The notes under the pieces: model-generated
Told to the model about the DNA's origin: nothing
Databases searched by the model: none
Seen by the model: only the letters and a program-made list of their open reading frames with translations
Shown here: positions 1-59,824 of the stretch, piece after piece
Position numbering within the stretch: the stretch's first letter is position 1
Layout of the letters: the number at the start of each line of letters is the position of its first letter
Made by a program: the position numbers and the translations under genes
Virus record (IMG/VR): IMGVR_UViG_3300047311_000253
Coordinates: 2,373 to 66,372 of that record
Source of the DNA: a virus
Reading direction: 5' to 3' (one strand)
Length of the DNA: 64,000 nucleotides

Positions 1-450
1 ACGACGGGCGGCAATCAGGTTGTGCCCGGTGCCGCAACCGAATTCGAAGATATGCGAGACATCGCGGAAGTGCTTATCAAATAGCCAGTCCTTGATGATT
101 CCGAACGCCTCATATTCGAAGCGAGAACCCACAGGATCGATCAGCTCGCGACACCACCGCACCACCGGGAATTTGCCGAAGTATTTTGGGACCAGAGAGC
201 CACCAAGGTTCTCCGACCAGCCCCTTTCCCATACCGGCAGACGATGCTCCCCCGACCGGTCGAGATCACGCTCGGCCAGCGCCTCGACCACGACGCGCAG
301 CCATTGGTCGCGCTTAGACGCTGGGATTGGCCGATAGGCGAAATCGAACGCCTTGATGCGGCCCGCGACATAACCTGAAATGTCTTCGTTGAATGCCACG
401 GCAAAGTCCCGCGCGTCGAGACGCAGGGATGTCTTATACTGAATGTTCAT
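1..450 (-). CDS. Class I SAM-dependent methyltransferase (truncated at window edge)
   Basis: Not in the ORF track; manual translation from ATG 450 gives MNIQYKTSLR...IFEFGCGTGHNLIAARR (SAM-binding motif I), open to position 1. Confidence 0.75.
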   Translation of the reverse strand, partial: MNIQYKTSLRLDARDFAVAFNEDISGYVAGRIKAFDFAYRPIPASKRDQWLRVVVEALAERDLDRSGEHRLPVWERGWSENLGGSLVPKYFGKFPVVRWCRELIDPVGSRFEYEAFGIIKDWLFDKHFRDVSHIFEFGCGTGHNLIAARR

Positions 451-660
451 TAGGCGGCAATCCTCACAAGGGTCGGCGCATTGCAGTCCTTGTCCGACAC
501 CATTTTAACCATTTACCTATTTGTATTAGACATTTCTTACATATTTGATATTCATTAGATTTAAGTTTAACTCCACAAAACCAACAGTGCGTAGGATTAT
601 ATGTTGACATTACGCGGCAATCCTCGCAAGTGGCGGCGCATTCCTGTCCTTCTCCGACAC
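448..660. repeat. 53-bp direct repeat (448-500 / 608-660) duplicating the rmlC 3' end
   Basis: 46/53 identical; copies translate as VSEKDRNAPPLARIAA* and VSDKDCNAPTLVRIAA*. Confidence 0.85.
464..610 (-). CDS. Small AT-rich Cys-rich protein (48 aa, moron)
   Basis: ATG overlaps the rmlC stop (TAATG); MSTYNPTHCWFC...CKKC, two CxxC pairs. Confidence 0.5.
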   Translation of the reverse strand: MSTYNPTHCWFCGVKLKSNEYQICKKCLIQIGKWLKWCRTRTAMRRPL

Positions 661-6055: not shown

Positions 6056-8260
6056 TTAGGTGTGAGCTGCGGCATAGGTCGACATGACCACGCAGCCATA
6101 ATCGGAACCGTTGAAGCGGGTTTTCTTCAACCCCCAGATGCTGAGGGCGGATACTTCCAACCTCCGCTTGTGGTCAAAGAGTTCCTCATTCCAGAGATAC
6201 TTTCCGCCCGCATGCTTCATGCCATAGCCGACACAAGCCGCTTGCGCGCCGAGCAACACCGCCCGGCGAACCGTCGTGATTGCCGCGGCCGTGGACGAAT
6301 TAACGCCCGTGGTCACGTCATAGGACGACTTGAGGATGACGGAGTTGTATTCGCCTATCGCTCCATCGTAGAGCGGCGAGTTTTTACTGCCGTCGCCGGT
6401 CATCGCGGCCTTGGTGATATCGAGCCACTGGCCGGTGCTGGTGTTAGTTCTCAGGTCCGTGACCTGATATGGGTGTAAATAGGCGCCTTGGGTTCATTAT
6501 AGTTCGCTAAACTATAACCGTTTCCTTCCCATAAAAGGAAACCGCTTACATTTACATGTAAGAGCAGACTATATCACCACCCCAATTCTCGGGGGCCTCG
6601 CGCTTCGCGTCGCTTGACGCTACGAGCTTTCGCTCTAGTCGTTGAACCTTCTGTGATTGATGCGGACAGATACCACCATTAGCATGCTTGGCCCAATTAC
6701 AATTCCGACATAGAATTTGGAAATTGCTTGGGTACCCATTATCGACCAGCCATTTATAAAGACGGGTTGTACCAATTACCTTTCGGTGTTTATTCCCATC
6801 GTTATTGACGTGGTCAATGGTCAGGAAGATACGTTCTCTCTCACCACAACATGCACATTGTCGCCCATAATGATCGAATACCATATCTCTTGATTTTTGA
6901 TTGTAAGCCACGCTCCACCTATTGTGCTTGTCTTTTACTCCCTGAGGCCATTTGGAATACGGCCTTGCCATATAGCGATCGTGACTGTTTTTTAGATAGC
7001 ATTCGATGCATTCGAACCGAGGCCCTATTTTTCCGCTTCGTTTCTTATAAACGTAAAAACAGTCCTCTGACTTGCTTTGTCCGCATTTCTTACACTGCCT
7101 CATACGCCCTCCTTTGGTTAAGAGCGCAGTGTATCACAGCTTGGCTGCTGATTGTCCTGCGTGATTCACTTTGTCGCAGGATGTTCCAGCAATTCACGAG
7201 GTTATTCGATGCACATTACTGCGCAAAGACGCCTAATTGACGTACCGGCCTTGTTGAACCGCCCGGTAGTAATCGCCGATGTCCGACTTACCCATGGCAT
7301 TGATCGGGCGCACGAGCGGAGTGGCGGTGATCGCCATTTCCTTCGCTTTGTCGATCATGCCGAGGGTGAACGTATTGGACGAAGTAAGCGACTCGTCGGC
7401 GCTTAGAGAGCCCTGCCACAGGATGCGGCTGGAGGATGGCGCAGTCGGCGCCTGGAGGCCGGTATACTTGGTGCGGGCCTCGTTGTTGTTGCCGCAGACC
7501 TGATTAAAAAAACTTACAGAAAGACGCTTCGCGTACCAGTCTGCAAGGCCGTCTCGTGCTTCGGCCCGCAGGTCGAAGGGAACACGCTGCTGGTCGATGG
7601 TGCGGTCGGACTTGACGCCGGCCACACCCATCAACTCGTTGATGGTAAGTTGCCAGATGTTCACGACGGATCGCTGGGCCGTCGCCGTTCTTTCGAACTG
7701 CCCCACCTCGCGGCAGGGAGCGGACTATATCATCACCTCTTGCGAGGGCGGGGGGCTTCGGCCCGCTTGGGCCTACTTCCTTTCGGAATAGTCTCTACAC
7801 CTTCCGCGACACAACGCAGGGAATCCCATAGATCGGTATATTTGATCGTTTCGACCAACAATGCTTCCGACCACAGTCTCTTGCGGGATAACTGCTTTAC
7901 TCGCGGCTTGGCTCGGTATTGTCTCTTTACAGAGAGATTCACCGAATTCACCCCGTTTGCTATGGCGGCTTACGCTGCCAAAGGGACCAATAGTCGATCC
8001 GTATAGATCGTCAGACTCTCGCCGTTACCTTCGGCGAGTTCGTTTTCGGTGAACCCGTCTTGGGTCATTTGGAGACGCAGGCCGAACGTGACCTGGTCGC
8101 CTTTACCCTTTTCGAGTTCCTCTTTCTTGTGAATGATGCTGCCTGCGTCGGTGCCAATCAAAGGCGCGATTTCGGTGTACTTAAGCGCTTCGACCGAGAG
8201 TTCCTTTGACCACAACTTCACAGCATATGCGTCATTCAAAGCGAAGGATGTAGTCGCCAT
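6056..8260 (-). CDS. Major capsid protein, N4-gp56 family; join(8260-7997, 7652-7240, 6485-6056), 368 aa
   Basis: Exons join in frame (264+413+430=1107 nt): ESLTIYTD|QLTINEL and QGRYV|AYLHPYQVTDLR; motifs VKLWS, GDQVTF.L, R..LLGAQA. Confidence 0.9.
6486..7239 (-). mobile_element. Group I intron 2 (754 nt) with homing endonuclease ORF
   Basis: Exon ends in U, intron ends in G; P1 ACGU/GCGU; UAGGCG can pair with 3' exon CGCCUA; P GAAUUGCUGGAA (7184-7195), Q AAUCAGCAG, R GUUCAACGACUA (6636-6647), S GAUAUAGUCUG (6565-6575). Confidence 0.9.
6552..7103 (-). CDS. Intron-encoded HNH homing endonuclease
   Basis: N-terminal CxxC..CxxC; CACCG...LTIDH.NN...ILCRNCN; AAGGAGG RBS; located in the P6 loop, 3' end overlaps the intron core. 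Confidence 0.85.
   Translation of the reverse strand: MRQCKKCGQSKSEDCFYVYKKRSGKIGPRFECIECYLKNSHDRYMARPYSKWPQGVKDKHNRWSVAYNQKSRDMVFDHYGRQCACCGERERIFLTIDHVNNDGNKHRKVIGTTRLYKWLVDNGYPSNFQILCRNCNWAKHANGGICPHQSQKVQRLERKLVASSDAKREAPENWGGDIVCSYM
7653..7996 (-). ncRNA. Group I intron 1 (344 nt, no endonuclease)
   Basis: Exon GGAU pairs with IGS GUCC (U.G wobble); UUG can pair with 3' exon CAA; P GAAUUCGGUGAA (7938-7949), Q AAUACCGAG, R GUAGAGACUA (7789-7798), S GAUAUAGUCC (7722-7731); terminal G. Confidence 0.9.
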
Positions 8261-8311
8261 GATGATTCCTGCTTGTGAGATTTTGCGGATGAACTGCGGG
8301 ATACGTGCGCA

Positions 8312-8396
8312 GACACGGATCGGTCGATGACGCTCACCGAAAGGCGGAACCCTGCCCGTAGGGACACCGGATCGGCGATACGCTCACCGAAAGGCG
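8312..8396 (-). repeat. Tandem ~35-nt structured repeat in the capsid gene leader
   Basis: 8312-8346 and 8363-8396 share the identical 17-mer acgctcaccgaaaggcg. Confidence 0.75.
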
Positions 8397-8472
8397 ACAC
8401 ACGATTGACTGAGACTGCCCCATGGTCTTGGTGCAGCGCCGCGTAGAGGTCTGCGTCCATGGGAGAAACGAT

Positions 8473-9612
8473 TTACCGGCCCGGCGCCCCGATCAGGCTG
8501 GTGAATTCCTTACGCTGTGCCGCCGTGAGGCTCGATCGCCATGCCGCATATTCGTTGTCGTCCATGTCGGCGAGCTTGGCGAGGTCGATGCCGGCCGGAG
8601 CCGGAGCGCCGCCGGCAGAGGACAGCGAGCGGCTGGCGGCTTGGCCGCGCTGGATGGCCTCGACCTGCTGGGTGACGGTGGGCGGTGCGGCAGCGGGAGC
8701 CGGGGAAGACGCTGCCGCACCGTTTCCAGTGTGGCCAGCACTCCCAGACGGCAAAGGTGCCGCCGGCGCCGGTGCCTGGAATCCGCGAGCCCTCGCCAGC
8801 CCATAGATGATCTGGGCGGGCCCGGCCGCGTTTGGATTGGTCTGTCGTGCCATCAGGGCGCGGGCAACGATATCGCGCTCATCAAGCGTAATGATGCGCA
8901 TGCGCTCGGCGGGATCGGTGTAGCCGGCGGCGGAAAGCTCTGCGTCACGGTTTGCCATCAGCCAATTGTAGGCTTGGCCGAAGTCGGCCTGCCTTGTGGC
9001 GAATTCGCGGGCATCCCGGACATAGGTGGTCTGCAACTCGGTGGCGGCGTCGCGTTCCTGGACGTTGGTGGCAACTTGATCGGTTTTGCCAGCAAGGCCA
9101 TTCACCTGTTCGCCGAGCCATCGCATGTAGCCGAAGGGATCGGCTTCGGGATCGGGCGGGGCGGCGGGCTGCTGGGCCGGGGGCTCGACTGCCTGCTGAA
9201 AGACCTTCAGCCTTTCATCGAGGCGCGCCCATTTCTCGCGCTCGGCTGCGGTTGATGCACGCTCGGCGGCGATCGATGTCTCCCGCGCCTGCAGCTCGCG
9301 TTGGAGTTCCTGGCGGCGGGTCTTCTCGCGCTTCCATTGGGGATAGAAGGGAGAGTCCTTGGCGGGCTCGTCATCCTCCTCAACGGGCTCCGCAGGCGTT
9401 GCCGATGCAGCCTCGGCTGGGGCCGGCTTCGCGGGTTCTGCCGCTTGGGCAGGCTTCTCCGGCTCGGCAGGGGCAGGCTTTGCAGCATCGTCACCGGCGG
9501 CCGGAGGAGTCAATCCATCGCTATTTTTCCCGCCACTTTGCAGGTAATCGATCTCGCCTTGGGTCAATCCCTCATCGAGTAAGGCGCGGGTCTTGGCGTC
9601 GGCTTCTGGCAT
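8473..9612 (-). CDS. Putative scaffolding protein
   Basis: Acidic Ala/Pro-rich coiled-coil protein just upstream of the capsid gene; start MPEADAK follows a GAGGA RBS. Confidence 0.7.
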   Translation of the reverse strand: MPEADAKTRALLDEGLTQGEIDYLQSGGKNSDGLTPPAAGDDAAKPAPAEPEKPAQAAEPAKPAPAEAASATPAEPVEEDDEPAKDSPFYPQWKREKTRRQELQRELQARETSIAAERASTAAEREKWARLDERLKVFQQAVEPPAQQPAAPPDPEADPFGYMRWLGEQVNGLAGKTDQVATNVQERDAATELQTTYVRDAREFATRQADFGQAYNWLMANRDAELSAAGYTDPAERMRIITLDERDIVARALMARQTNPNAAGPAQIIYGLARARGFQAPAPAAPLPSGSAGHTGNGAAASSPAPAAAPPTVTQQVEAIQRGQAASRSLSSAGGAPAPAGIDLAKLADMDDNEYAAWRSSLTAAQRKEFTSLIGAPGR

Positions 9613-9622
9613 AAGTGTCCTC

Positions 9623-10819
9623 TTAGATGAAAGCTTCTTGCGGTGCGAACAACGGCGCGTCCTCCCCCGACACATGCGCGATCCTGCGCTTGATGTCGGC
9701 GACGTATTCCGCCTCGCGCTCGATCAGGATGGCATCGAAGCCATCGCGCATGCAGGCCATGCCTGTGCTGCCGCTGCCGGCAAAGGGGTCGAGCACAATG
9801 CCACCGGGAGGACAGACCAACCGGCACAGATAGGCCATGAGGTCGACCGGCTTGACGGTGGGGTGTTTGGAACTCAGGCGGTCGCCTTTGTCGGCCTTGG
9901 CTGTGTAGAAGAAGCGAGCGGCGGAACCGGAATCATTGCCATAGTCGCGCGTTGTCTCATATCCAGCCTTGGCGTCTTGGCCATAGATCGCGCGCTGGCC
10001 GATTGGCCTTGTTCCAGCTTTCATTAGCCCGCTTGTCGACTCAGGAAACGCCCCCACCACTTCCTCGCTGCCGTCGTGGATCAAATTAGCAGGCCATCTC
10101 CCGATCTCAGAACCACTTTGAAAATCATTACCGTTTCCGGTGCGCCATTGTTCTGGATTTCCGGTCCCGCCATGGTTATTGCGAACCGTGCTTTCTGCCC
10201 CCTTCACCCTGCAAGCGCCTATGTTGAGAGCACCAGCACCGTGCGCCAGCACATTGGCTGCCACAGTTCCAATGAGGGGCTTGCGTGCGAGGATGATGGG
10301 CTCATGGGCGGGCTTTAGGGCGGTGCCCCAGCCCTGCCATTTGCGGGCGGCGTCGGTGGCGGGGGCGGTGACTAAAACCCCGCCGTTTTCCGTCTCCATC
10401 CCGTTCCAGCCGCCGTGAGATTGTTCCTTATGCTCCTGTACCTGTTGTCTCGTTCTACTTTCCCCGACCACTTCCCGTTCCGCCCCCGCGGCCTTGTCGA
10501 TCGCCTTGCTCACGTCAAGCGACTTCGGAAATCCGCTGCCGTAAAGCCACATGATCTGGTCGCGTATCTCAAATCCAGCGTCCTCGATCGCGCATGCCAA
10601 GCGGTGATAGGTGCGGGAGCCGCCGAACGCGAGCAAGTGGCCACCGGGCTTGAGGACACGGAAGACGGCTTTCCAGAATGGAATTCCTGGAACGCCATGG
10701 TCCCAGTTCTTGCCCATGAACGATAGGCCATAGGGCGGGTCCGTCACGCAGGCATCGACCGAGGCTTCCCCGAGCGTCGGCAACACATCCAGACAATCTC
10801 CGGTAAGTACACGAATCAT
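9623..10819 (-). CDS. DNA N6-adenine/N4-cytosine methyltransferase (beta class)
   Basis: VTDPPY, HPTVKP, DPFAGSGST. Confidence 0.9.
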   Translation of the reverse strand: MIRVLTGDCLDVLPTLGEASVDACVTDPPYGLSFMGKNWDHGVPGIPFWKAVFRVLKPGGHLLAFGGSRTYHRLACAIEDAGFEIRDQIMWLYGSGFPKSLDVSKAIDKAAGAEREVVGESRTRQQVQEHKEQSHGGWNGMETENGGVLVTAPATDAARKWQGWGTALKPAHEPIILARKPLIGTVAANVLAHGAGALNIGACRVKGAESTVRNNHGGTGNPEQWRTGNGNDFQSGSEIGRWPANLIHDGSEEVVGAFPESTSGLMKAGTRPIGQRAIYGQDAKAGYETTRDYGNDSGSAARFFYTAKADKGDRLSSKHPTVKPVDLMAYLCRLVCPPGGIVLDPFAGSGSTGMACMRDGFDAILIEREAEYVADIKRRIAHVSGEDAPLFAPQEAFI

Positions 10820-11121
10820 GATGCCGGCGCTGTCTGTTTCGGCGGCGGTAACACATCCTTATGATGGGTTTCAGCCGCCCACGCCTCAATGATATCGCGG
10901 CCTCGTGGAACATGATAGTCGTTCATTATCACTCCCATCGTGCCGGGGAATGCATCCTTATGGTGGATTTTAGCCGCCCACGCCTCAATGATATCGCGGC
11001 TCTGCGTTTCCCTGATATCCACTCCGAGCCCCGCCCAATACCGGACGCAATCCAAATTCCTTGGGTCTCGTGGAACATGATAACCGTTCATTATCACTCC
11101 TATCGTGCCGCGGAAGGTCAT
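10816..11121 (-). CDS. Mosaic small ORF built from internal duplications and a copy of the portal C-terminus
   Basis: GT.GVIMN.YHVPR x2, RDIIEAWAA..HHKD x2, ends PKQTAPAS; ATGA-coupled at both ends. Confidence 0.5.
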   Translation of the reverse strand: MTFRGTIGVIMNGYHVPRDPRNLDCVRYWAGLGVDIRETQSRDIIEAWAAKIHHKDAFPGTMGVIMNDYHVPRGRDIIEAWAAETHHKDVLPPPKQTAPAS

Positions 11122-13424
11122 GCTGGCGCCGTCTGTTTCGGCTGCGGCGGGAACGCATCCTTGTGATGCGGTATCGGTGTCAACGCATCGATCAGCGCCC
11201 CGACACGGGCCGCGTGCGCGCTGGCATGGTCTGCGGCTTGGCCTGCCTGCTCGCTGCCGACCTTGGCCCGGACATGATCCGCGGTTGCCCGTTCGGTCGC
11301 GACCTTGGCATAAGTGTGGGCGGTCTCGGCATTGGTCTTGCCTACATCGGCCTGGGTCTTCATGGCCTCGAAGCCTGACTTGCGGGCTTCGTTCATGGCG
11401 GCGGCTAAATCTCCTTGGTGTTTAAGTAACAAATTTTTTGCCATCGCCAAGTCATACATTGCCGTGGCTTCGGTACTCGATGCCTGCTTGTTGAACAACT
11501 CGGCCTGCGCCTGGTCCTTACTGGCCTTCGCCACCGCACCGGCTAGCGCCGCCTGCTTCATCTGTTCGACCATCGGGTCGGCCTGCTGCGGCGAGTTGAG
11601 CATTTGCCGGATCGATTCCAGCATTGCCTGCGGCAGCGGCGAGAATTCCAATACCTTCAGTAAGATTTGCGGCTGCGCCATCAACTGGTCTTTGAAAGCC
11701 GGCAGCAGGTTCGAAATGATAGCCCAGTTCGCTTGCTTCTGGTTCGGACTTGTCGGCGTGTCGTCAACGATCACGTCGTATTCGCCAAGCGTGCGGTCGC
11801 GAAGAAGCTGAATCGACTTCTGCCCATCCTGGCCGGTGATGCGGATGATACGGCCGTCACTCAGGAAGTTTTGAATGTAATAGAGACGGATTCGCCCGAC
11901 GATCTTGCGCATGCGGCGCAGCGCATCGAACATGGTGGCGAGCACCGTCATCCCGGCCTGCTTGCGCATGGCCTCCAGGATGCCGGGCTGGTTCACATCT
12001 TTTTGGCCGATCAGTTCCAGATTGATGCCGGACACATCGCGGGTGGCGTTGATGGCCATGTCAAGCAATTGCAGATAGCCCTCGACGTTGCCGCCAGTCG
12101 GTTTGGCGACAAACTTGGGACCGTTCTGCCCCGATAGCGCGCCGCGGGCCGCCCATACGATGCCATCGGGACGCGCCCAGTTCTGCTCGGCTTGGCGCTG
12201 GTCCTCAAACATGCCGGTTTCGGCAACGATGCCGCCCTTGGCCGTCGAGTTGAGGATGTGTAGCGTTTGGCTCAACCACTTGTTGCCCCACATCTGGGGG
12301 TCGCGCAAGGTGCGGACGATGCCAAACCATGTCTTCTTGGTGTGGTGTAGCTGGCCAGTGATGACGGTGCGCGAAAACCGGGCGGGGTCTTTGGCGGGGC
12401 CTATTTCCAGGATTTCCTGGCCCAGGAAAGCTTGCTTGAACACCTTGCGCTTGGTTTTAGCGGCCGTGAGTTGCTGCGGGCGATAGCCGGGGATGGCCTG
12501 TGCCTTGATGGCCTCGACCTCGGCGTGACGGGATTTCAGCTTGGTATAGGTCGGCCCATCAAGCTTGTGCATCTTGTTGTTGGTGGGATCGGCGACACAC
12601 CAGCAATCTTCGCGCTCCCACCATTCGAGATGAACGAGGGTGACCTCATCCTGATCGGCTAGCGGGCCGGACGAGTTCTCGTCGCGGACGCGGCGTTCCT
12701 CCAGGGTCTTCTGGGGCGTGCCGGGATCGTTGGCGTACGCCCATTTGGCGTCGAGCTGGTCGCGGTTGAAGTCGGGAAAGAGTTGCTGCGCATCGCCGAG
12801 CGGCATGGTGCGGACGCGCCAATCGCGGCGGCGATCCACCATGTTCTTTTTCTTTGCTGTGCGGTCCCAGTAGAATTCGAGCGGATCGATCGCCTCCTCG
12901 ATGTATTTGCCCTCGGCTTCTTCCTCATAGTCCATGCGGTGCTCGAGCACACCCAGGCCGCAGATCAGTGTGTGTTCGAAGGCTTCACTTTCCTCATCCT
13001 CGCCGTCGCATTCGTCCGCCATCCATTTGGAGGCGCCGGTCAAGGTTTCGTCGATCGCAGAATCTTCCAGCTTGCGGGGCAGAAATGCAATCTCATGGCG
13101 GCCGTTGATCTCCATGCCGGCCACGGCCTTGATGATGGTCAGGCTGCGGTTGAAGACGATGGGGCTGCGGTTCTGGTCCTTGAGAAGGGCTTGGTCCTTT
13201 TCGCTCCACTGGTCACCAGCGATGAAGTCGAAGTCCGTTTTGGCCTGGACGCGCCAATCCTTGGAGTGCCGTTCGTCACCCTTGAACCAAGCCTTGAAGA
13301 CGCGCATGGCCTCCGACTTTTCCAACTCGGACGGACGCATGTCGTTGCCCGGCGCGGCAGACTGATCTGCCTGCGGGCCGTCTTGGGAGGATTTGGTGGC
13401 GACTTGCTCGTCAACGTCGGCCAT
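11118..13424 (-). CDS. Portal protein (P22-like)
   Basis: 768 aa; DF..GDQW, PIVFN, LRDPQ...NK..S, YDV.VD..P.SP; upstream of scaffold and capsid. Confidence 0.85.
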   Translation of the reverse strand: MADVDEQVATKSSQDGPQADQSAAPGNDMRPSELEKSEAMRVFKAWFKGDERHSKDWRVQAKTDFDFIAGDQWSEKDQALLKDQNRSPIVFNRSLTIIKAVAGMEINGRHEIAFLPRKLEDSAIDETLTGASKWMADECDGEDEESEAFEHTLICGLGVLEHRMDYEEEAEGKYIEEAIDPLEFYWDRTAKKKNMVDRRRDWRVRTMPLGDAQQLFPDFNRDQLDAKWAYANDPGTPQKTLEERRVRDENSSGPLADQDEVTLVHLEWWEREDCWCVADPTNNKMHKLDGPTYTKLKSRHAEVEAIKAQAIPGYRPQQLTAAKTKRKVFKQAFLGQEILEIGPAKDPARFSRTVITGQLHHTKKTWFGIVRTLRDPQMWGNKWLSQTLHILNSTAKGGIVAETGMFEDQRQAEQNWARPDGIVWAARGALSGQNGPKFVAKPTGGNVEGYLQLLDMAINATRDVSGINLELIGQKDVNQPGILEAMRKQAGMTVLATMFDALRRMRKIVGRIRLYYIQNFLSDGRIIRITGQDGQKSIQLLRDRTLGEYDVIVDDTPTSPNQKQANWAIISNLLPAFKDQLMAQPQILLKVLEFSPLPQAMLESIRQMLNSPQQADPMVEQMKQAALAGAVAKASKDQAQAELFNKQASSTEATAMYDLAMAKNLLLKHQGDLAAAMNEARKSGFEAMKTQADVGKTNAETAHTYAKVATERATADHVRAKVGSEQAGQAADHASAHAARVGALIDALTPIPHHKDAFPPQPKQTAPA

Positions 13425-26596: not shown

Positions 26597-27139
26597 TTAC
26601 CTTCCCAACCGCGCGAGGACTTCATCGATCGCCGCTTTGACCTTTTGGTGTTCCCCTTCTTTGTCGGCGATTGACCTTGCTAAGACTGCATGATCATCGG
26701 TCACGGACTTTATCTTGGATATCCAGTCGGCATGCTCGGCCTGCAAAGCGGCGAGTTTTTCCCGAGCGACAGAAAGGGCTTTTTCAGCATTAGATTTGTT
26801 GGCGTCTATTAACGTCTGGGCCTCATCACGGAGGGACTTAGCGTCTTGTTTTGCCTCATCCAACACTTTGTTTGCATCGCGCTTGATGGAATCGGCAAGA
26901 GTCCGCGCGTCCAGGATGATCCTGTCCGAGGTAGCTCGCGCGGCCCCCTCCACACGCCGGGCATCCTCCTCGCCCTTTGTGGCCTCCGACTTGATTTGAT
27001 CGAGCCGAATGCGAGCTTCATCCTGCGCTCCCTTGAGCGAGGAAATCTTTTGTAATTCCGGCGCAATATCGATGATCCCGCGGAACATCACCGCAAGGCG
27101 CTGCAGGTTTTCGAAGGCCACTTGCTCGGGATTGCTCAT
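26597..27139 (-). CDS. Coiled-coil protein
   Basis: Start MSNPEQ (ATGA overlap); A/E/K heptads. Confidence 0.65.
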   Translation of the reverse strand: MSNPEQVAFENLQRLAVMFRGIIDIAPELQKISSLKGAQDEARIRLDQIKSEATKGEEDARRVEGAARATSDRIILDARTLADSIKRDANKVLDEAKQDAKSLRDEAQTLIDANKSNAEKALSVAREKLAALQAEHADWISKIKSVTDDHAVLARSIADKEGEHQKVKAAIDEVLARLGR

Positions 27140-27494
27140 CTGCCTTGTGTCTTTCGAAAAAACATGGTGACGGTCTCGACGCGCGGTTCGCGGCGCAGCT
27201 CGTCGAGGCGCGCGGTTCGGAGCAGCGTGGCTTGAGCGGCCATCATTCGTCGCCGATCCTCTCGTTGTATCGTCCATGAAGGCAAACGGAATTCTCCGGC
27301 TGTGGATAGAGAATATCGTTCTCGTAAACTCCCCCTTTAACCGGAATATACCACCCCGTATCTGTGTCATGGATCAGAACGTCGGCGTGTTGTGGCTGAG
27401 TCTGCAGCCATTCGATTAATTGGGAAACAGTCATGGCCACTTGCTCGGAATTGCTCATCTACCTTGTGTCTTTCGAAAGAACATGGTGACGGTC
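27116..27494. repeat. 60-bp direct repeat (27116-27175 / 27435-27494) of a gene junction
   Basis: 57/60 identical; contains TVTMFFRKTQGR* plus MSN.EQVA. Confidence 0.9.
27243..27458 (-). CDS. Inserted hypothetical protein using a duplicated start region
   Basis: MSNSEQVA copy fused to MTVSQLIEWLQ..P..A.V. Confidence 0.55.
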   Translation of the reverse strand: MSNSEQVAMTVSQLIEWLQTQPQHADVLIHDTDTGWYIPVKGGVYENDILYPQPENSVCLHGRYNERIGDE

Positions 27495-39478: not shown

Positions 39479-39642
39479 TCATCCAAAGCTTTTCGGTCCT
39501 CGGCATTTCTCCGCTCTATCTCTTCATCGCTGATCCCCAGACACTTCGGGCAGGTAATGTCGTAGAGATGCACGCCGCGCGCCGAAATGATCGGATAGGT
39601 GCCCGCACCATCACAAATGGGACATGAAGGCTCCCCGCTCAT
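39457..39642 (-). CDS. Small Zn-ribbon protein
   Basis: CPICDG.G...CPKCLG. Confidence 0.5.
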   Translation of the reverse strand: MSGEPSCPICDGAGTYPIISARGVHLYDITCPKCLGISDEEIERRNAEDRKALDEWRVRNL

Positions 39643-39923
39643 GCCGCCCGCTCCGAATGCGCCTTCCGGCCATCCCTCTTTTTGGCTCTTGCCGCAGCTT
39701 CGCGGCGCATGACTTCAAGTGCATCGTCTATGCGACCCGCTTCCATCTCATCGGCGAGAAGACGCATCCCGCACGGGGTGATCCGACACCAATCGCCTTT
39801 TCCGTCATCAGCGAGGATCCCACGTTTAACGAGGGACTTTGAAATTCGGTCGCCAACGACAAGTATGCGCCCCGGCGATGCGAGGGAGATTAGGAGCTGC
39901 AATTGCTGATGTCCGATTTTCAT
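39639..39923 (-). CDS. Hypothetical protein flanked by a 25-bp direct repeat
   Basis: tcatgccgcccgctccgaatgcgcc at 39639 and 39920. Confidence 0.55.
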   Translation of the reverse strand: MKIGHQQLQLLISLASPGRILVVGDRISKSLVKRGILADDGKGDWCRITPCGMRLLADEMEAGRIDDALEVMRREAAARAKKRDGRKAHSERAA

Positions 39924-40096
39924 GCCGCCCGCTCCGAATGCGCCCGCCGATCATCCTCGATGATCGCCCGCAGCAGCGAGCGGATCAGGGCGGATCGGCT
40001 TGGGTAGCCGCCTTCATCGGCCATGTTATCGAGGTAGGCGGCATCGGCAGGTGGAAGCCAGGTGACGCTTCTTATGAGTGTGCGCAGTGCTTTCAT
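39920..40096 (-). CDS. Ribbon-helix-helix protein (58 aa)
   Basis: Manual translation MKALRTLIRSVTWLP...LD.MA...G..SRSALIR.LL; GGAG RBS. Confidence 0.6.
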   Translation of the reverse strand: MKALRTLIRSVTWLPPADAAYLDNMADEGGYPSRSALIRSLLRAIIEDDRRAHSERAA

Positions 40097-42068: not shown

Positions 42069-42282
42069 TGGGGCTGGTGAGATGACCGCAAATTACCTCA
42101 TCGAAGGCGCCACATGGCGCGGCCCCCGCTCCGGCCGAATGGCCGTCGTCCCCGTCCGGATCACTACCGCGCTGCTCACTCGCATCAGAGCCCGCGGAAT
42201 CCCCGTCAGCAAATTTCTGCGCGAGGCGGGGGAGAAGGCGGCGGACATCGCTTCCCTTCCACCACAGGGAAAGGGCGAGTGA

Positions 42283-42483
42283 ATGGACGATATTGTCGAG
42301 CGACTCCGCAACCGAGAGGGATTTGTTCTTGAGGGACCGAGGCGACTTATGATGCTCTGCGAGCAAGCCGCCGACGAGATCGCGCGGCTCCGAGAGGAAC
42401 TCAGGCAGGTGCGAAGGGCGTTGCAATGCTATAACCCGGATCATTCTCTCCTCGCTCCCGGTCCACCAGAGGATACACCATGA
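42283..42483 (+). CDS. Hypothetical phage protein
   Basis: DIVERLR...AADEI.RLR motif common in phage early genes. Confidence 0.55.
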   Translation: MDDIVERLRNREGFVLEGPRRLMMLCEQAADEIARLREELRQVRRALQCYNPDHSLLAPGPPEDTP

Positions 42484-42866
42484 GGATGATCACCGTCTAT
42501 TTGCCTGACAGTCCTGCCGCGCCTCAGGCCGAGTATGAATCTGCGCTTTTGCAAACTATCCGCAATTGCGATTCAGAGTCCGCAAGCATCTTTGTTAGCT
42601 TTCTGTCTTTTTTCAGGCCCATCCAGAATGCTTGGTTCTTAGAACTCTCCACTAAGCTTGCTATGGAAAAAGAGATCGCGCAGCTGCGGGAGGCGCTGGT
42701 GCCTTTTGCAAAATGCGCCGACGCCATCGAATGCACCACCACGCACGAGTGCCATGACGCGGACCAATGGGCTATCGGCGATCTCGACCACATCCTTAAA
42801 TTTAGTGACCTGCGCCGCGCCCGCGCTGCCATCGCTCCCCATCCACCAGAGGGAAAGGGCGAGTGA
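42480..42866 (+). CDS. Hypothetical phage protein
   Basis: LREAL.PFA...DLRRARAA. Confidence 0.55.
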   Translation: MRMITVYLPDSPAAPQAEYESALLQTIRNCDSESASIFVSFLSFFRPIQNAWFLELSTKLAMEKEIAQLREALVPFAKCADAIECTTTHECHDADQWAIGDLDHILKFSDLRRARAAIAPHPPEGKGE

Positions 42867-58025: not shown

Positions 58026-59111
58026 TTATGCCGCCAAGTCGGCCAACATTCCTATCCTACGGGAGCGCCTTGTGGCAAGATCATAATTCACCGCCTTATA
58101 CCCACCGATCTCCCCGACCGCTTCCGGCCGGTCGCGCTCGATCTCCTGGGCGATAAGGCCGATGCGCGGGGTTTCGTCGCCTTTGTATTTGTAGCTATAA
58201 ACATTTGTGCCGTCATAAAGCTCGCCGACCGGCTGGATGTCTTCCTTCAGGTTGGCGTCGGAGAACATCGAGGCCCCAAGCAATCCCGCCCCAATCGCCG
58301 TATTCTGCCAGGGCTGCTGTTGCGATGTCGTTCCCGTCATGTTTCCCGTTGACTGCCCGCCCAGTTTGGCGATTGGCTCGACCAGCCCTTCCGCCGCGCC
58401 GAGATTGGCCCATGGTAACTGCGCCTGGAGATTTTGGGCCGATAACATCCCGAGCGCCGGTTGGGTGAACAGGCCGGGGATCGAACCAGCCGCACCGATG
58501 CCCTGAATCTGGTTTTGCAGCGCCGCCTCTTGCGCTGCCGTGAGGCCGCTTGCGGTTGATCCAGCCGCCCCGCCGAGCTGATTGATCGCCTGTAATTGGT
58601 TGCCGGTAAGGGTATTGAATTCGTTCGCCAGCAGCCCGCCCTCGCCTTGGGAGAGGCCGCGCGCGAGCGCCTGCGTCATCGACGCATTGGTCCCGACCGG
58701 CCGTCCCGCTGCTGCCGCCTGTCCTTCGATCTGGTTGGTGATGTCCGAATTCATCGTAGACATCGCCTGCTTGAGCGCCGGATTTGTATAGGGGTTCGTG
58801 TAATCAGCGCCCAACATTGGAGACAGCGCGCCCAATTCCTGGCCATAGGCACCGGCCAGCATGCCCTGCTGTGGGTTCGTGTTCGACCCGAACAGGTTAT
58901 TGACCGCCCCCGCCCCAGCCTGCCCGAAGTTCGGCAGCCCAGTGGTGGCATCGATCAGCCCTTGTGTCGCGCCACTCTGTCCCGTGGTCGGGCTGAAATT
59001 GCCAGCGCCAACCTGCTTCAGGATGTTTTTGAGAGCCGGCGCAGACGGCCCCCACGGATTGGTCGTGGACTGCTGCTGTTGGTTTTGAGTCGTTTGAGTT
59101 GTGCCGGACAT
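58026..59111 (-). CDS. Pilot/ejection protein with C-terminal S74-type intramolecular chaperone domain
   Basis: Gln/Gly/Ala-rich; SD..LKE.I, Y.Y.YK, IGLIAQE. Confidence 0.7.
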   Translation of the reverse strand: MSGTTQTTQNQQQQSTTNPWGPSAPALKNILKQVGAGNFSPTTGQSGATQGLIDATTGLPNFGQAGAGAVNNLFGSNTNPQQGMLAGAYGQELGALSPMLGADYTNPYTNPALKQAMSTMNSDITNQIEGQAAAAGRPVGTNASMTQALARGLSQGEGGLLANEFNTLTGNQLQAINQLGGAAGSTASGLTAAQEAALQNQIQGIGAAGSIPGLFTQPALGMLSAQNLQAQLPWANLGAAEGLVEPIAKLGGQSTGNMTGTTSQQQPWQNTAIGAGLLGASMFSDANLKEDIQPVGELYDGTNVYSYKYKGDETPRIGLIAQEIERDRPEAVGEIGGYKAVNYDLATRRSRRIGMLADLAA

Positions 59112-59123
59112 TAGAGCCTCTTT

Positions 59124-59414
59124 TCAATGGCAAAAAACAAACCATGGAATTTGGGTCTTGCAAGGCAGAAAGTGTTCTCGTGTTGTCAAATCGTACCTTG
59201 CCAGCATTTCTTTGATTTCGTCGAGTGACTTTCTTCCTAAATTTGGAATCCCGAGCAATTCCCCGTCGCTTATTTTGGCGATATCTCCAAGCGTATCAAT
59301 TGCGCCGAAGGTCCACCAACCATTACCCTCCAGGTAAGCGGTATTAGATAAACAATGTGCGACCCTGGTACTCCATTCTAACGATCTCCAAGGTATGTCT
59401 TCGTGGCCCATCAC
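59124..59414 (-). CDS. Stand-alone RNA polymerase alpha subunit C-terminal domain
   Basis: LE.STR..HCL...I.TLGD......ELL.IPNLGRKSL.EIK..L. Confidence 0.8.
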   Translation of the reverse strand: MMGHEDIPWRSLEWSTRVAHCLSNTAYLEGNGWWTFGAIDTLGDIAKISDGELLGIPNLGRKSLDEIKEMLARYDLTTREHFLPCKTQIPWFVFCH

Positions 59415-59824
59415 AACCTCTTTTCAAGCATGACCCATCTCTCGTTATAGTCGGGAAAGTATCCCTTCCATCCTTTGCGCCCCTCGATGCGGACGGACAT
59501 ACACCCTTCTGCCTTGGCGTAGGCTTCGACCTTGGCGAGAAGGCCCGCCCAACGATCGAGTTCAACGCCGCCGCATGACGTGATCTGGCACACGATTCCG
59601 CGTGGGGTCTTGATCAGTTTCGTGGTCAGTGCGGCAAGGATAGCGCGATCGTCGCGCTCCCAAACGAGCCATAGGACCGAGGTCTGCGCCTTCAGTTCGG
59701 CCAACACGATGTTCGCATCGTCATCACCCCGTTCACGGGCGAATGCACTCTCGATGAAGCCCCTGGCATGGGGCCAGATGTCCTCGATAGCGACGGGATG
59801 AACGCACACGAGATCACATGCCAT
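59411..59824 (-). CDS. Podovirus tail-region protein (GNAT-like)
   Basis: W......I..A, LWL, GG, AK..GC..V...GR.GW. Confidence 0.6.
   Translation of the reverse strand: MACDLVCVHPVAIEDIWPHARGFIESAFARERGDDDANIVLAELKAQTSVLWLVWERDDRAILAALTTKLIKTPRGIVCQITSCGGVELDRWAGLLAKVEAYAKAEGCMSVRIEGRKGWKGYFPDYNERWVMLEKRL

What the first reader, a model, noticed from the sequence alone, without database searches (positions are those of the whole stretch)
7829..7879. Intron 1 carries a diverged copy of capsid N-terminal coding sequence in its P6 extension
Seen: 7879-7829 translates as RLWSEALLVETIKYTDL, versus KLWSKELSVEALKYTEI in exon 1 (8218-8168). That is 9/17 identical residues and 33/51 identical nucleotides, with 5 of the 9 identical residues using synonymous codons. 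It sits where intron 2 holds its endonuclease, and it can fold as a hairpin (GGUCGG/CCGAUC, UUGGUC/GAUCAA). Inference: a captured fragment of another phage's capsid gene. It might be the target-like landing site of a lost homing endonuclease, a decoy site or a recombination template.
Basis: partly seen in the sequence, partly recalled or inferred. Interest (0 to 1): 0.75.

Follow-up and report, generated by a model that had tools for sequence, protein, structure and literature searches.

The report
Capsid-gene scrap inside an intron loop
A self-splicing intron in a soil phage's capsid gene carries, in one outer RNA loop, a short decayed copy of an earlier stretch of capsid coding sequence; it is most likely a tolerated scar of sloppy DNA repair, not a working part.

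Summary
7879-7829 (minus strand) reads RLWSEALLVETIKYTDL against KLWSKELSVEALKYTEI at 8218-8168. That is 9/17 residues and 33/51 bases, with 5 of the 9 shared residues on synonymous codons.

The stretch lies in the middle of a 94-nt insertion (7901-7808) in the P6a end loop of group I intron 1 (7996-7653). The orthologous intron at the same capsid site (L146) lacks the insertion, and so do all 120 other copies of this intron family examined.

The likeness is more than chance:
- 0 of 1000 shuffles reach its score.
- Searched against every open frame of the window, the insertion's best hit is its own host gene (E 0.003).
- A profile of 119 capsid N-termini picks it out of all six frames of the window (14.7 bits against 6.6 for the best unrelated tile).

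No donor was found; the best match is 10/17 residues or 36/51 bases. I found no sign of function. There is no endonuclease remnant, no promoter or terminator, and no significant likeness to either intron's homing junction, and identical runs are too short for recombination.

Best reading: a decayed capsid-gene fragment captured by illegitimate repair, now a tolerated hairpin. It is a curiosity of modest interest.

The parts
7997..8260 (-). Capsid exon 1 (codons 1-88, ends ...ACG GAT)
   Evidence: PF13252 match, E 2e-20. The junction was set by intronless relatives P0122 and P0123, which read LTIYTDQLTINEL, and by the spliced translation.
8168..8218 (-). Exon 1 codons 15-31 (KLWSKELSVEALKYTEI), the stretch that the intron fragment resembles
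   Evidence: K15, L16, W17, L21 and I31 are invariant or nearly so in 120 capsid N-termini.
7653..7996 (-). Group I intron 1 (344 nt). It follows a U and ends in G.
Evidence: Rfam RF00028 40.8 bits, E 2e-8, below the gathering score of 50. An orthologous intron sits at the same site in L146.
7808..7901 (-). 94-nt lineage-specific insertion in the P6a end loop. It folds as one long irregular hairpin closed by CCGCGA/UCGCGG (7906-7901 / 7809-7804).
   Evidence: Related-intron contigs in runs X4 and X5 skip exactly 7808-7901 and have 3 letters there instead. L019 and L146 have CCGC-GCAA-GCGG and CCGUC-GCAA-GGCGG. Folds.
7829..7879 (-). Capsid-like fragment RLWSEALLVETIKYTDL. The best base-level core is 7877-7833. 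It forms the outer end of the P6a hairpin.
7240..7652 (-). Capsid exon 2
   Evidence: PF13252 positions 86-215. blastn to intronless relatives starts at 7652.
6486..7239 (-). Group I intron 2 of the same family, with an HNH endonuclease frame (7103-6552) in its P6 loop that runs on into the 3' core
   Evidence: Rfam partial matches. Weak HNH matches: Pfam PF01844 at E 0.15 and an NCBIfam IscB HNH-region match at E 1.5e-4. It is 37% identical to the L013 intron's HNH protein.
6056..6485 (-). Capsid exon 3
   Evidence: PF13252 positions 225-375, E 1.1e-34. I read the junction against the capsid coding sequence of L146 read.

Best explanation
The 51-nt stretch is a real but decayed piece of capsid coding sequence (codons 15-31 of a capsid gene of this phage's own clade). 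It was captured inside a 94-nt insertion in the P6a end loop of group I intron 1.

I infer that it entered by illegitimate, microhomology-type repair or template switching during the recombination traffic that introns and their endonucleases cause among co-infecting relatives. It came either as filler DNA or as the flank of a cassette since lost. P6a is the permissive loop of this intron family; the sister intron carries a 183-codon endonuclease gene there.

Today the fragment is non-coding. It simply forms the outer part of a long hairpin that the ribozyme tolerates, and its sequence as such has no job.

Shown: the likeness, its significance, its place in a lineage-specific insertion, and its persistence unchanged in other samples.
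Inferred: the capture mechanism, and that the sequence is neutral.
For: Homology:
- 0 of 1000 shuffles reach the protein score, and 8 of 2000 reach the base-level score against the whole coding sequence.
- Against all 713 open frames of the window, the insertion's top hit is its own host gene, E 0.003 and 15 raw units above the next unrelated hit.
- A profile of 119 capsid N-termini picks the fragment out of 21,306 six-frame tiles, 14.7 bits against 6.6.
- Base identity is graded by kinship: 32-36 of 51 to the five sequences of its own 'KYT' clade, against 26-29 of 51 to ten more distant capsids (the 15 correctly registered rows).
- Residues that differ from the window's own exon occur in relatives: VET in L004, IKYTD in L003.

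Coding past: about 1% of 20,000 neutral-decay simulations match the excess of synonymous differences.

Insertion:
- The orthologous intron in L146 has a 12-nt P6a.
- Of 120 other family copies, the longest P6 is 77 nt and the rest are 36 nt or less, against 101 here.
- Related contigs skip exactly 7808-7901.

Tolerated: a 1230-nt contig from another sample (X2) is identical across intron 1, insertion included. The insertion folds as a self-contained hairpin in the whole-intron fold.

Mechanism precedent: illegitimate double-strand-break repair at microhomologies during T4 intron homing (PMC2988022, section 5, passages read). This genome also has at least seven short diverged duplications flanking small inserted genes.
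Against: - No donor sequence was found. The best matches are 10/17 residues and 36/51 bases.
- The fragment departs at K15 (K in 120 of 120) and K19 (K or R in 117 of 120), and has L at a position that is never L. The match is therefore far from a working capsid.
- With many capsid queries against the whole window, chance hits of equal size appear: raw 59, and 37.4 and 34.6 bits. An unrelated AT-rich phage gave a 26/30 match to the insertion at the same E-value.
- Homology does not extend beyond about 45-51 nt on either side, so no junction or microhomology can be shown.
- Two other large peripheral insertions in related introns (L117 P6 and L019 intron A) show no host-gene likeness, so this is a single case.
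- Neutrality is an inference from negative results.
Confidence: 0.6

Rival explanations
1. Chance resemblance. The P6a extension grew by ordinary loop expansion or slippage, and its middle happens to read like the capsid N-terminus.
For: - The match is short (17 residues) and no closer donor exists.
- Searches with 17 capsid queries over the whole window give unrelated hits of the same size.
- An unrelated 26/30 match to the insertion was seen in a 1.2-Mb set.
- A small profile on whole frames gave i-E 0.59.
- The find is post hoc.
Against: - 0 of 1000 and 8 of 2000 shuffles reach the observed scores.
- E 0.003 against every open frame of the window, with the host gene as top hit.
- The profile gives an 8-bit gap over the best unrelated tile in all six frames.
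- The hit lies in the 0.3 kb of the gene's own intron, out of 128 kb of both strands.
- Identity is graded by clade.
Confidence: 0.2
2. Relic of a lost endonuclease cassette. An HNH gene that sat next to capsid 5' sequence in a donor phage moved into P6a with its capsid flank, as in the collaborative-homing and ORF-invasion models. The donor arrangement could be the endonuclease-bearing intron that relatives carry after base 23 of the gene, or a free-standing gene upstream. The gene was later deleted and the flank stayed. This is a special case of the best explanation.
For: - P6a is where intron 2 holds its HNH gene.
- L013 carries an HNH-bearing intron after base 23 of the capsid gene, 20 nt upstream of the region copied. 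L154 and L159 show what looks like an intron 3' end, read through to a stop, at the same place.
- The fragment has the orientation expected for a downstream flank.
- This genome shows seven small-gene insertions flanked by diverged copies of neighbouring gene ends.
- The models are described in PMC3984707, section 12.
Against: - There is no trace of an endonuclease frame in intron 1. The best tblastn is raw 42 with an internal stop, no better than shuffles.
- The insertion's flanks match nothing: 2 chance hits and 0 hits in IMG/VR.
- None of 120 other family copies sampled has an ORF-sized P6.
Confidence: 0.12
3. Working DNA or RNA mimic of the capsid 5' region: a decoy, immunity site or operator for an endonuclease or other protein that recognises capsid codons 15-31, or a template for recombination with exon 1.
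For: - There is a known precedent for a target-like site inside an intron. I-TevI binds an operator in the td intron as well as its homing site (PMC2988022, legend of figure 4).
- Intron sequences flanking I-TevII resemble its target (PMC3984707, section 12).
- An endonuclease-bearing intron inserts 20 nt upstream of the copied region in relatives.
Against: - Intron 1 has no endonuclease gene.
- The fragment does not resemble either homing junction of this gene (junction B 221 of 2000 shuffles as good, junction C nil).
- It starts 20 nt beyond the site-A insertion point.
- Only 33 of 51 bases are shared with the window's own exon, and identical runs are 7 nt, too short for homologous recombination by what I recall of minimal homology lengths.
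- There is no promoter-like or terminator-like site on its strand.
- A same-sense copy cannot pair with exon 1 RNA.
Confidence: 0.05

Closest known systems
Peripheral loop insertions of phage group I introns, including endonuclease genes in P6 (here: intron 2 of the same capsid gene)
   Same: Same intron family and same loop. Both have the P6 strand GCCAAGC, and the downstream AAGGU, GACUA and AUAUAGUC motifs. The ribozyme core is left intact and the inserted part folds apart from it.
   Different: The insertion is only 94 nt and holds no gene. Its centre resembles the host gene's own coding sequence, which I did not find described (searches; listings and passages only).
Intron sequences flanking I-TevII in the T4 sunY intron that resemble the exon junction (Loizos et al. 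1994, as told in PMC3984707 section 12; the original is not held)
   Same: A stretch inside a group I intron that looks like host-gene exon DNA. It is read as a footprint of how mobile DNA entered the intron.
   Different: There the likeness is to the endonuclease's own target at the exon junction, and it flanks a living ORF. Here there is no ORF, the copied region lies about 170 nt upstream of the junction, and the junction likeness is not significant.
I-TevI operator in the td intron (PMC2988022, figure 4 legend)
   Same: A target-like site within the intron.
   Different: That site overlaps the endonuclease's promoter and is bound by the intron's own enzyme. Intron 1 has neither an enzyme nor a promoter-like site.
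Illegitimate double-strand-break repair during T4 intron homing (Parker et al. 1999, as told in PMC2988022 section 5; the original is not held)
   Same: It gives a known route by which intron traffic joins unrelated DNA at microhomologies in phages.
   Different: No junction microhomology or donor can be shown here. The event is inferred, not seen.
This genome's own short diverged duplications of gene ends flanking small inserted genes (note e1-6201018)
   Same: Short copies (14-60 nt, 69-100% identical) of neighbouring coding sequence left beside insertions.
   Different: Those copies are of the immediately adjacent gene end and lie in pairs around a gene. The P6 fragment is a single copy, 339 nt from its counterpart, inside an RNA loop.

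Membership tests
Group I intron (Rfam RF00028) | Removal rejoins the exons in frame and restores the protein seen in intronless relatives | tested here: met
   Removing 7996-7653 gives ...LTIYTDQLTINELMGV.... This matches intronless P0122 and P0123 and the blastn joins in L002 and L004.
Group I intron (Rfam RF00028) | U before the 5' splice site and G as the last intron base | tested here: met
   ...ACGGAU|CGACU... and ...CAUCUGG|CAACUU, read.
Group I intron (Rfam RF00028) | Conserved catalytic core (P3-P9) scoring at the curated threshold | tested here: inconclusive
   40.8 bits, E 2e-8, full model length, but below the gathering score of 50. Supported by 120 other IMG/VR copies that share the P5-P6 19-mer. 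116 of them also show the P7 motif within reach of the regex.
Group I intron (Rfam RF00028) | Self-splicing activity | not testable with these tools
   No RNA run holds the stretch. This needs an in vitro splicing assay.
Captured or duplicated coding fragment (pseudo-exon) | Similarity to the source gene above chance in an unbiased search | tested here: met
   Weaker under the many-query nulls.
Captured or duplicated coding fragment (pseudo-exon) | Absent from orthologous or closely related elements (that is, an insertion) | tested here: met
   L146 at the same site, the two L019 introns, 120 other family copies, and the contigs of X4 and X5.
Captured or duplicated coding fragment (pseudo-exon) | Identifiable donor or recombination junction | tested here: not met
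   At most 10/17 residues and 36/51 bases. No hits. The flanks are unmatched.
Endonuclease-invasion footprint (sunY / I-TevII type) | Intron sequence flanking an endonuclease ORF resembles the exon junction that the enzyme cuts | tested here: not met
   Intron 1 has no ORF of that kind. Junction B: 221 of 2000 shuffles score as well. Junction C: a 5-nt match only.
Homing-endonuclease operator (I-TevI type) | A target-like site overlapping the promoter of an endonuclease gene in the same intron | tested here: not met
   No endonuclease gene in intron 1. 0 promoter-like sites in 7600-8500.
Degenerate endonuclease-gene remnant | Residual similarity to HNH or other homing endonuclease proteins | tested here: not met
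   Pfam and NCBIfam find nothing in the 72-aa frame. tblastn with two HNH proteins gives raw 42 with an internal stop.

The most novel reading that the evidence does not exclude
The copy is kept because it works as a mimic of the capsid gene's 5' region. One possibility is a DNA site that soaks up or misdirects the HNH endonuclease of the introns that invade this capsid family after base 23, seen in relatives L013, L154 and L159. Another is an RNA hairpin that a capsid-mRNA-binding factor recognises. Either would make it the first exon-derived functional module reported inside a phage group I intron.
Probability: 0.05. Interest if true: 0.7.

Novelty: new variant of a known kind. Interest (0 to 1): 0.3.

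Why it matters
If the reading holds, it is a small, datable fossil of how phage group I introns grow. Their permissive loops can take up scraps of nearby coding DNA, not only endonuclease genes. The ribozyme tolerates such scraps once they fold as a hairpin.

That bears on how composite mobile introns form (illegitimate recombination into loops). It also bears on how heavy the intron traffic is in this capsid family, which has at least six insertion sites among the relatives seen here.

It opens no long-standing question and shows no new mechanism. As a single case without a donor, it is a curiosity.

Tried and rejected
1. Donor search.
- A degenerate pattern for W...L.VETIKYT in IMG/VR gave 0 hits.
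- Among 120 capsid N-termini from the 5.8-billion-protein set, the best was 10/17.
- A word search with the 72-aa intron frame against longer proteins gave 15 candidates, none at E of 10 or less.
- blastn of the P6 region against GenBank phages gave only 27-nt chance matches in Rhodococcus phage polymerase genes, E 4.

2. Same element elsewhere.
- Exact 18-mers of the two insertion flanks in IMG/VR gave 2 chance hits and 0 hits.
- There is no second copy in the window or in 136 loci, apart from capsid N-termini and one 26/30 chance match in three related AT-rich contigs.

3. More introns at the same site.
- A P2 pattern in IMG/VR gave 9 hits, none an intron.
- An exon-intron pattern in metagenomes gave 0 hits.
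- The search for related loci with P0130 gave 23 loci, of which only L146 has the orthologous intron, without the insertion.

4. Homing-junction mimicry. The motif ACGATC..TATACsGATC resembles the exon 1 end, but 221 of 2000 shuffles score as well. Rejected.

5. 'Optimised for a hairpin'. The fragment's MFE of -13.0 lies within the range of its 15 correctly registered coding homologues (-6.1 to -15.6). Only 3 of the 6 positions flagged as unique to the fragment are paired, and that count was itself made with two mis-registered rows (L151, L152) in the reference set. Neither figure is informative. In that call, the rows L147 to L165 were mis-registered by my own error (starts were those of K15, not of the ATG), and I dropped them.

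6. Endonuclease remnant: none.

7. Promoter or terminator in the insertion: none on its strand.

8. Generality. The L117 P6 insertion (77 nt) and the L019 intron A insertion (160 nt) show no likeness to their own loci. Best tblastx E values were 0.7 and 0.1.

9. Expression. No RNA holder is listed for the stretch. This is no evidence either way.

10. Mini-exon or twintron reading. Rejected, because neither half of intron 1 is a complete ribozyme.

11. Papers. Two full-text searches listed nothing on exon-derived sequence in intron loops. I read only passages of PMC2988022 and PMC3984707. Loizos 1994 and Parker 1999 are not held and are cited through those reviews. Supplements were not consulted.
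Full report
**What is there.** The window is part of a 66-kb IMG/VR virus record. It occurs in soil and rhizosphere metagenomes.

On the minus strand lies a major capsid gene of family PF13252, the N4-gp56-like capsid family. It is split into three exons. I fixed the splice sites from relatives without introns. P0122 and P0123 read ...GESLTIYTDQLTINEL..., and blastn to L002 and L004 joins exon 1 to exon 2 at 7652. The layout is:
- exon 1: 8260-7997
- intron 1: 7996-7653. It follows a U and ends in G.
- exon 2: 7652-7240
- intron 2: 7239-6486
- exon 3: 6485-6056

Rfam's group I model matches both introns below its gathering score. Intron 1 scores 40.8 bits, E 2e-8, over the full model; intron 2 scores 29.1 bits. 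The family itself is real and large. In 116 of those places my regex finds the P7 motif shortly after it, and the other four show a short hairpin by eye.

**The observation.**
- RLWSEALLVETIKYTDL at 7879-7829, against KLWSKELSVEALKYTEI at 8218-8168
- 9 of 17 residues and 33 of 51 bases identical
- 5 of the 9 shared residues on synonymous codons

The stated hairpin forms. Intron 2 does hold its HNH frame (7103-6552) in the same loop, starting 35 nt after the same P6 strand GCCAAGC.

**It sits in a lineage-specific insertion.**
- The Rfam alignment leaves 100 nt unmatched between the P6 strands.
- Among 120 other copies of the family (two of them the same contig fetched twice), the distance from P6 to P7 is 8-36 nt in all but one. 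The exception is L117 at 77 nt. L024's 63 is a regex artefact.
- The window's distance is 101 nt.
- L146, a metagenome contig, carries the orthologous intron at exactly the same capsid site. Its P6a is CCGUC-GCAA-GGCGG.
- When Logan contigs of four other runs were laid on the region, two contigs of related introns (about 83% alike, from X4 and X5) skipped exactly 7808-7901 and had three letters instead.
- A 1230-nt contig from X2 was identical to the window across the whole intron, insertion included.

So a tetraloop hairpin was replaced by a 94-nt element. That element folds as one long irregular hairpin closed by CCGCGA/UCGCGG, on its own and in the fold of the whole intron. The capsid-like 51-mer is its outer end.

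**Is the likeness more than chance?** Tests in favour:
- 0 of 1000 dinucleotide shuffles of the insertion reach raw score 55 against the spliced capsid protein in six frames (max 42).
- 1 of 2000 shuffles reach the base-level score against exon 1, and 8 of 2000 against the whole coding sequence.
- An unbiased blastx of the insertion against all 713 stop-to-stop frames of 50 aa or more in the window puts capsid exon 1 first, at E 0.003. The next unrelated hit is 15 raw units lower.
- A profile of 119 capsid N-termini from public data was scored on 21,306 tiles covering all six frames. The three tiles over the fragment get 14.7, 14.4 and 13.5 bits. The best unrelated tile gets 6.6.
- Base identity follows kinship: 32-36 of 51 to the five sequences of the window's own clade, and 26-29 of 51 to ten others (correctly registered rows only).

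Tests against:
- With 17 capsid queries against the whole window, one unrelated gapped hit scores raw 59 against the fragment's 58.
- At base level, unrelated hits of 37.4 and 34.6 bits flank its 35.6.
- A 26/30 match of the insertion to an unrelated AT-rich phage had the same E-value as the capsid matches in a 1.2-Mb set.
- A small profile on whole frames gave i-E 0.59.

Weighing these, I put genuine descent from capsid coding sequence at about 0.8.

**Whose capsid gene?** No donor turned up.
- The best of 120 N-termini is 10 of 17 residues.
- The best base match is 36 of 51, to L019; blastn gave 34 of 44.
- A degenerate pattern found nothing in IMG/VR.
- A word search with the intron frame found nothing.

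The fragment has R for the invariant K15, E for K19 and L where no capsid has L. It has therefore decayed since it last coded.

The excess of synonymous differences is hard to get by neutral decay of a copy of the present exon; about 1% of 20,000 simulations reach it. So part of the divergence happened under coding constraint. That could have been in a different donor gene, or in the window's own exon after an old duplication. The data do not separate these two.

**What it does.** I found nothing that points to a function of the sequence as such.
- Intron 1 has no endonuclease frame or remnant.
- The insertion has no promoter-like or terminator-like site on its strand.
- Its flanks match nothing.
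- The fragment corresponds to codons 15-31, about 170 nt upstream of intron 1's insertion site.
- Its partial likeness to that junction (ACGATC..TATACsGATC) is not significant (221 of 2000 shuffles). To intron 2's junction there is none.
- Identical runs with exon 1 are 7 nt long.
- As a same-sense copy, it cannot pair with exon 1 RNA.

One lead remains. L013 carries an HNH-bearing intron after base 23 of the capsid gene, 20 nt upstream of the copied region. L154 and L159 show what looks like an intron end at the same place. A cassette from such a place would carry just this capsid flank. This lets the 'relic of a lost cassette' variant stand, though without positive evidence.

The general mechanism has precedent. 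Illegitimate double-strand-break repair at microhomologies occurs during T4 intron homing (PMC2988022, section 5). Illegitimate recombination is also the proposed route of endonuclease genes into intron loops (PMC3984707, section 12).

This genome also shows seven short diverged duplications of gene ends beside small inserted genes (note e1-6201018, checked). Scraps of neighbouring coding DNA left at insertions are therefore common here.

**Comparison with what is known.** Target-like sequences inside introns are known in two forms:
- the flanks of I-TevII in the sunY intron (told in PMC3984707)
- the I-TevI operator in the td intron (PMC2988022)

Both involve the intron's own enzyme and its own homing site. 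Neither condition is met here, so I do not file the fragment under them.

Two other large peripheral insertions in related introns show no likeness to their host loci, so this is a single case, not a rule. Two full-text searches listed no report of host-exon-derived sequence in a phage intron loop. I read only listings and passages, so the claim of novelty is weak.

**Verdict.**
- The reading 'captured capsid fragment' is probably right.
- 'From another phage' is undecided.
- 'Landing site, decoy or recombination template' is not supported.

It is a new variant of a known kind: a peripheral insertion in a phage group I intron whose content is exon-derived. Interest is modest, at 0.3.

Noticed in passing
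window 6056-8260; L013 1040-1775; L019 4355-4783 and 5159-5450; L003 1753-2499; L146 530-778: This capsid family is a hot spot for group I introns. Among the relatives fetched I count at least six different insertion sites:
- after base 23 (L013, and by reading also L154 and L159)
- after codon 88 (window intron 1, L146, and the cut frames P0121, P0124, P0126, P0127, P0130 and P0135)
- after ...KRLSV (L019 intron A; the cut frames P0122, P0123 and P0125)
- window intron 2
- L019 intron B
- one in the exon 3 region of L003

   Followed up: partly
L146 280-330: The only contig with the orthologous intron has a TGA in place of the invariant TGG (W17). It also has a 1-nt deletion three codons later, in just the capsid stretch that the window's intron copy resembles. 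This is either a pseudogene or an assembly error.
   Followed up: no
window 448-660, 2057-2380, 10816-11168, 27116-27494, 39639-39944, 42246-42866, 59109-59427: The seven pairs of short direct repeats from note e1-6201018 exist as stated. They are 14-60 nt long and 69-100% identical, and each pair brackets roughly 300-600 nt. At the portal end, the small frame 10816-11121 ends with a diverged copy of the portal C-terminus.
   Followed up: partly
window 8340-8445 (minus strand), just upstream of the capsid start: The motif CGCCTTTCGGTGAGCGT occurs twice, about 55 nt apart, in the leader between the scaffold-like gene and the capsid gene (read). It was not analysed.
   Followed up: no
L019 4441-4600: Intron A of L019 has a roughly 160-nt insertion in its P5 region. 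It has no likeness to its own locus (best tblastx E 0.1) and no obvious gene.
   Followed up: partly
window 6552-7103 (minus): The intron 2 endonuclease scores only weakly with Pfam HNH (E 0.15). It matches the HNH part of NCBIfam's IscB model at E 1.5e-4. It is 37% identical to the HNH protein of the L013 intron, which sits at a different capsid site.
   Followed up: no
window 7970-7972 and 7736-7969 (minus): The copy lies exactly 339 nt (113 codons) downstream of its counterpart, in the same reading frame. A single TAA separates the exon 1 frame from a 78-codon open stretch that covers the fragment. This is a one-in-three coincidence, and I attach no meaning to it.
   Followed up: no
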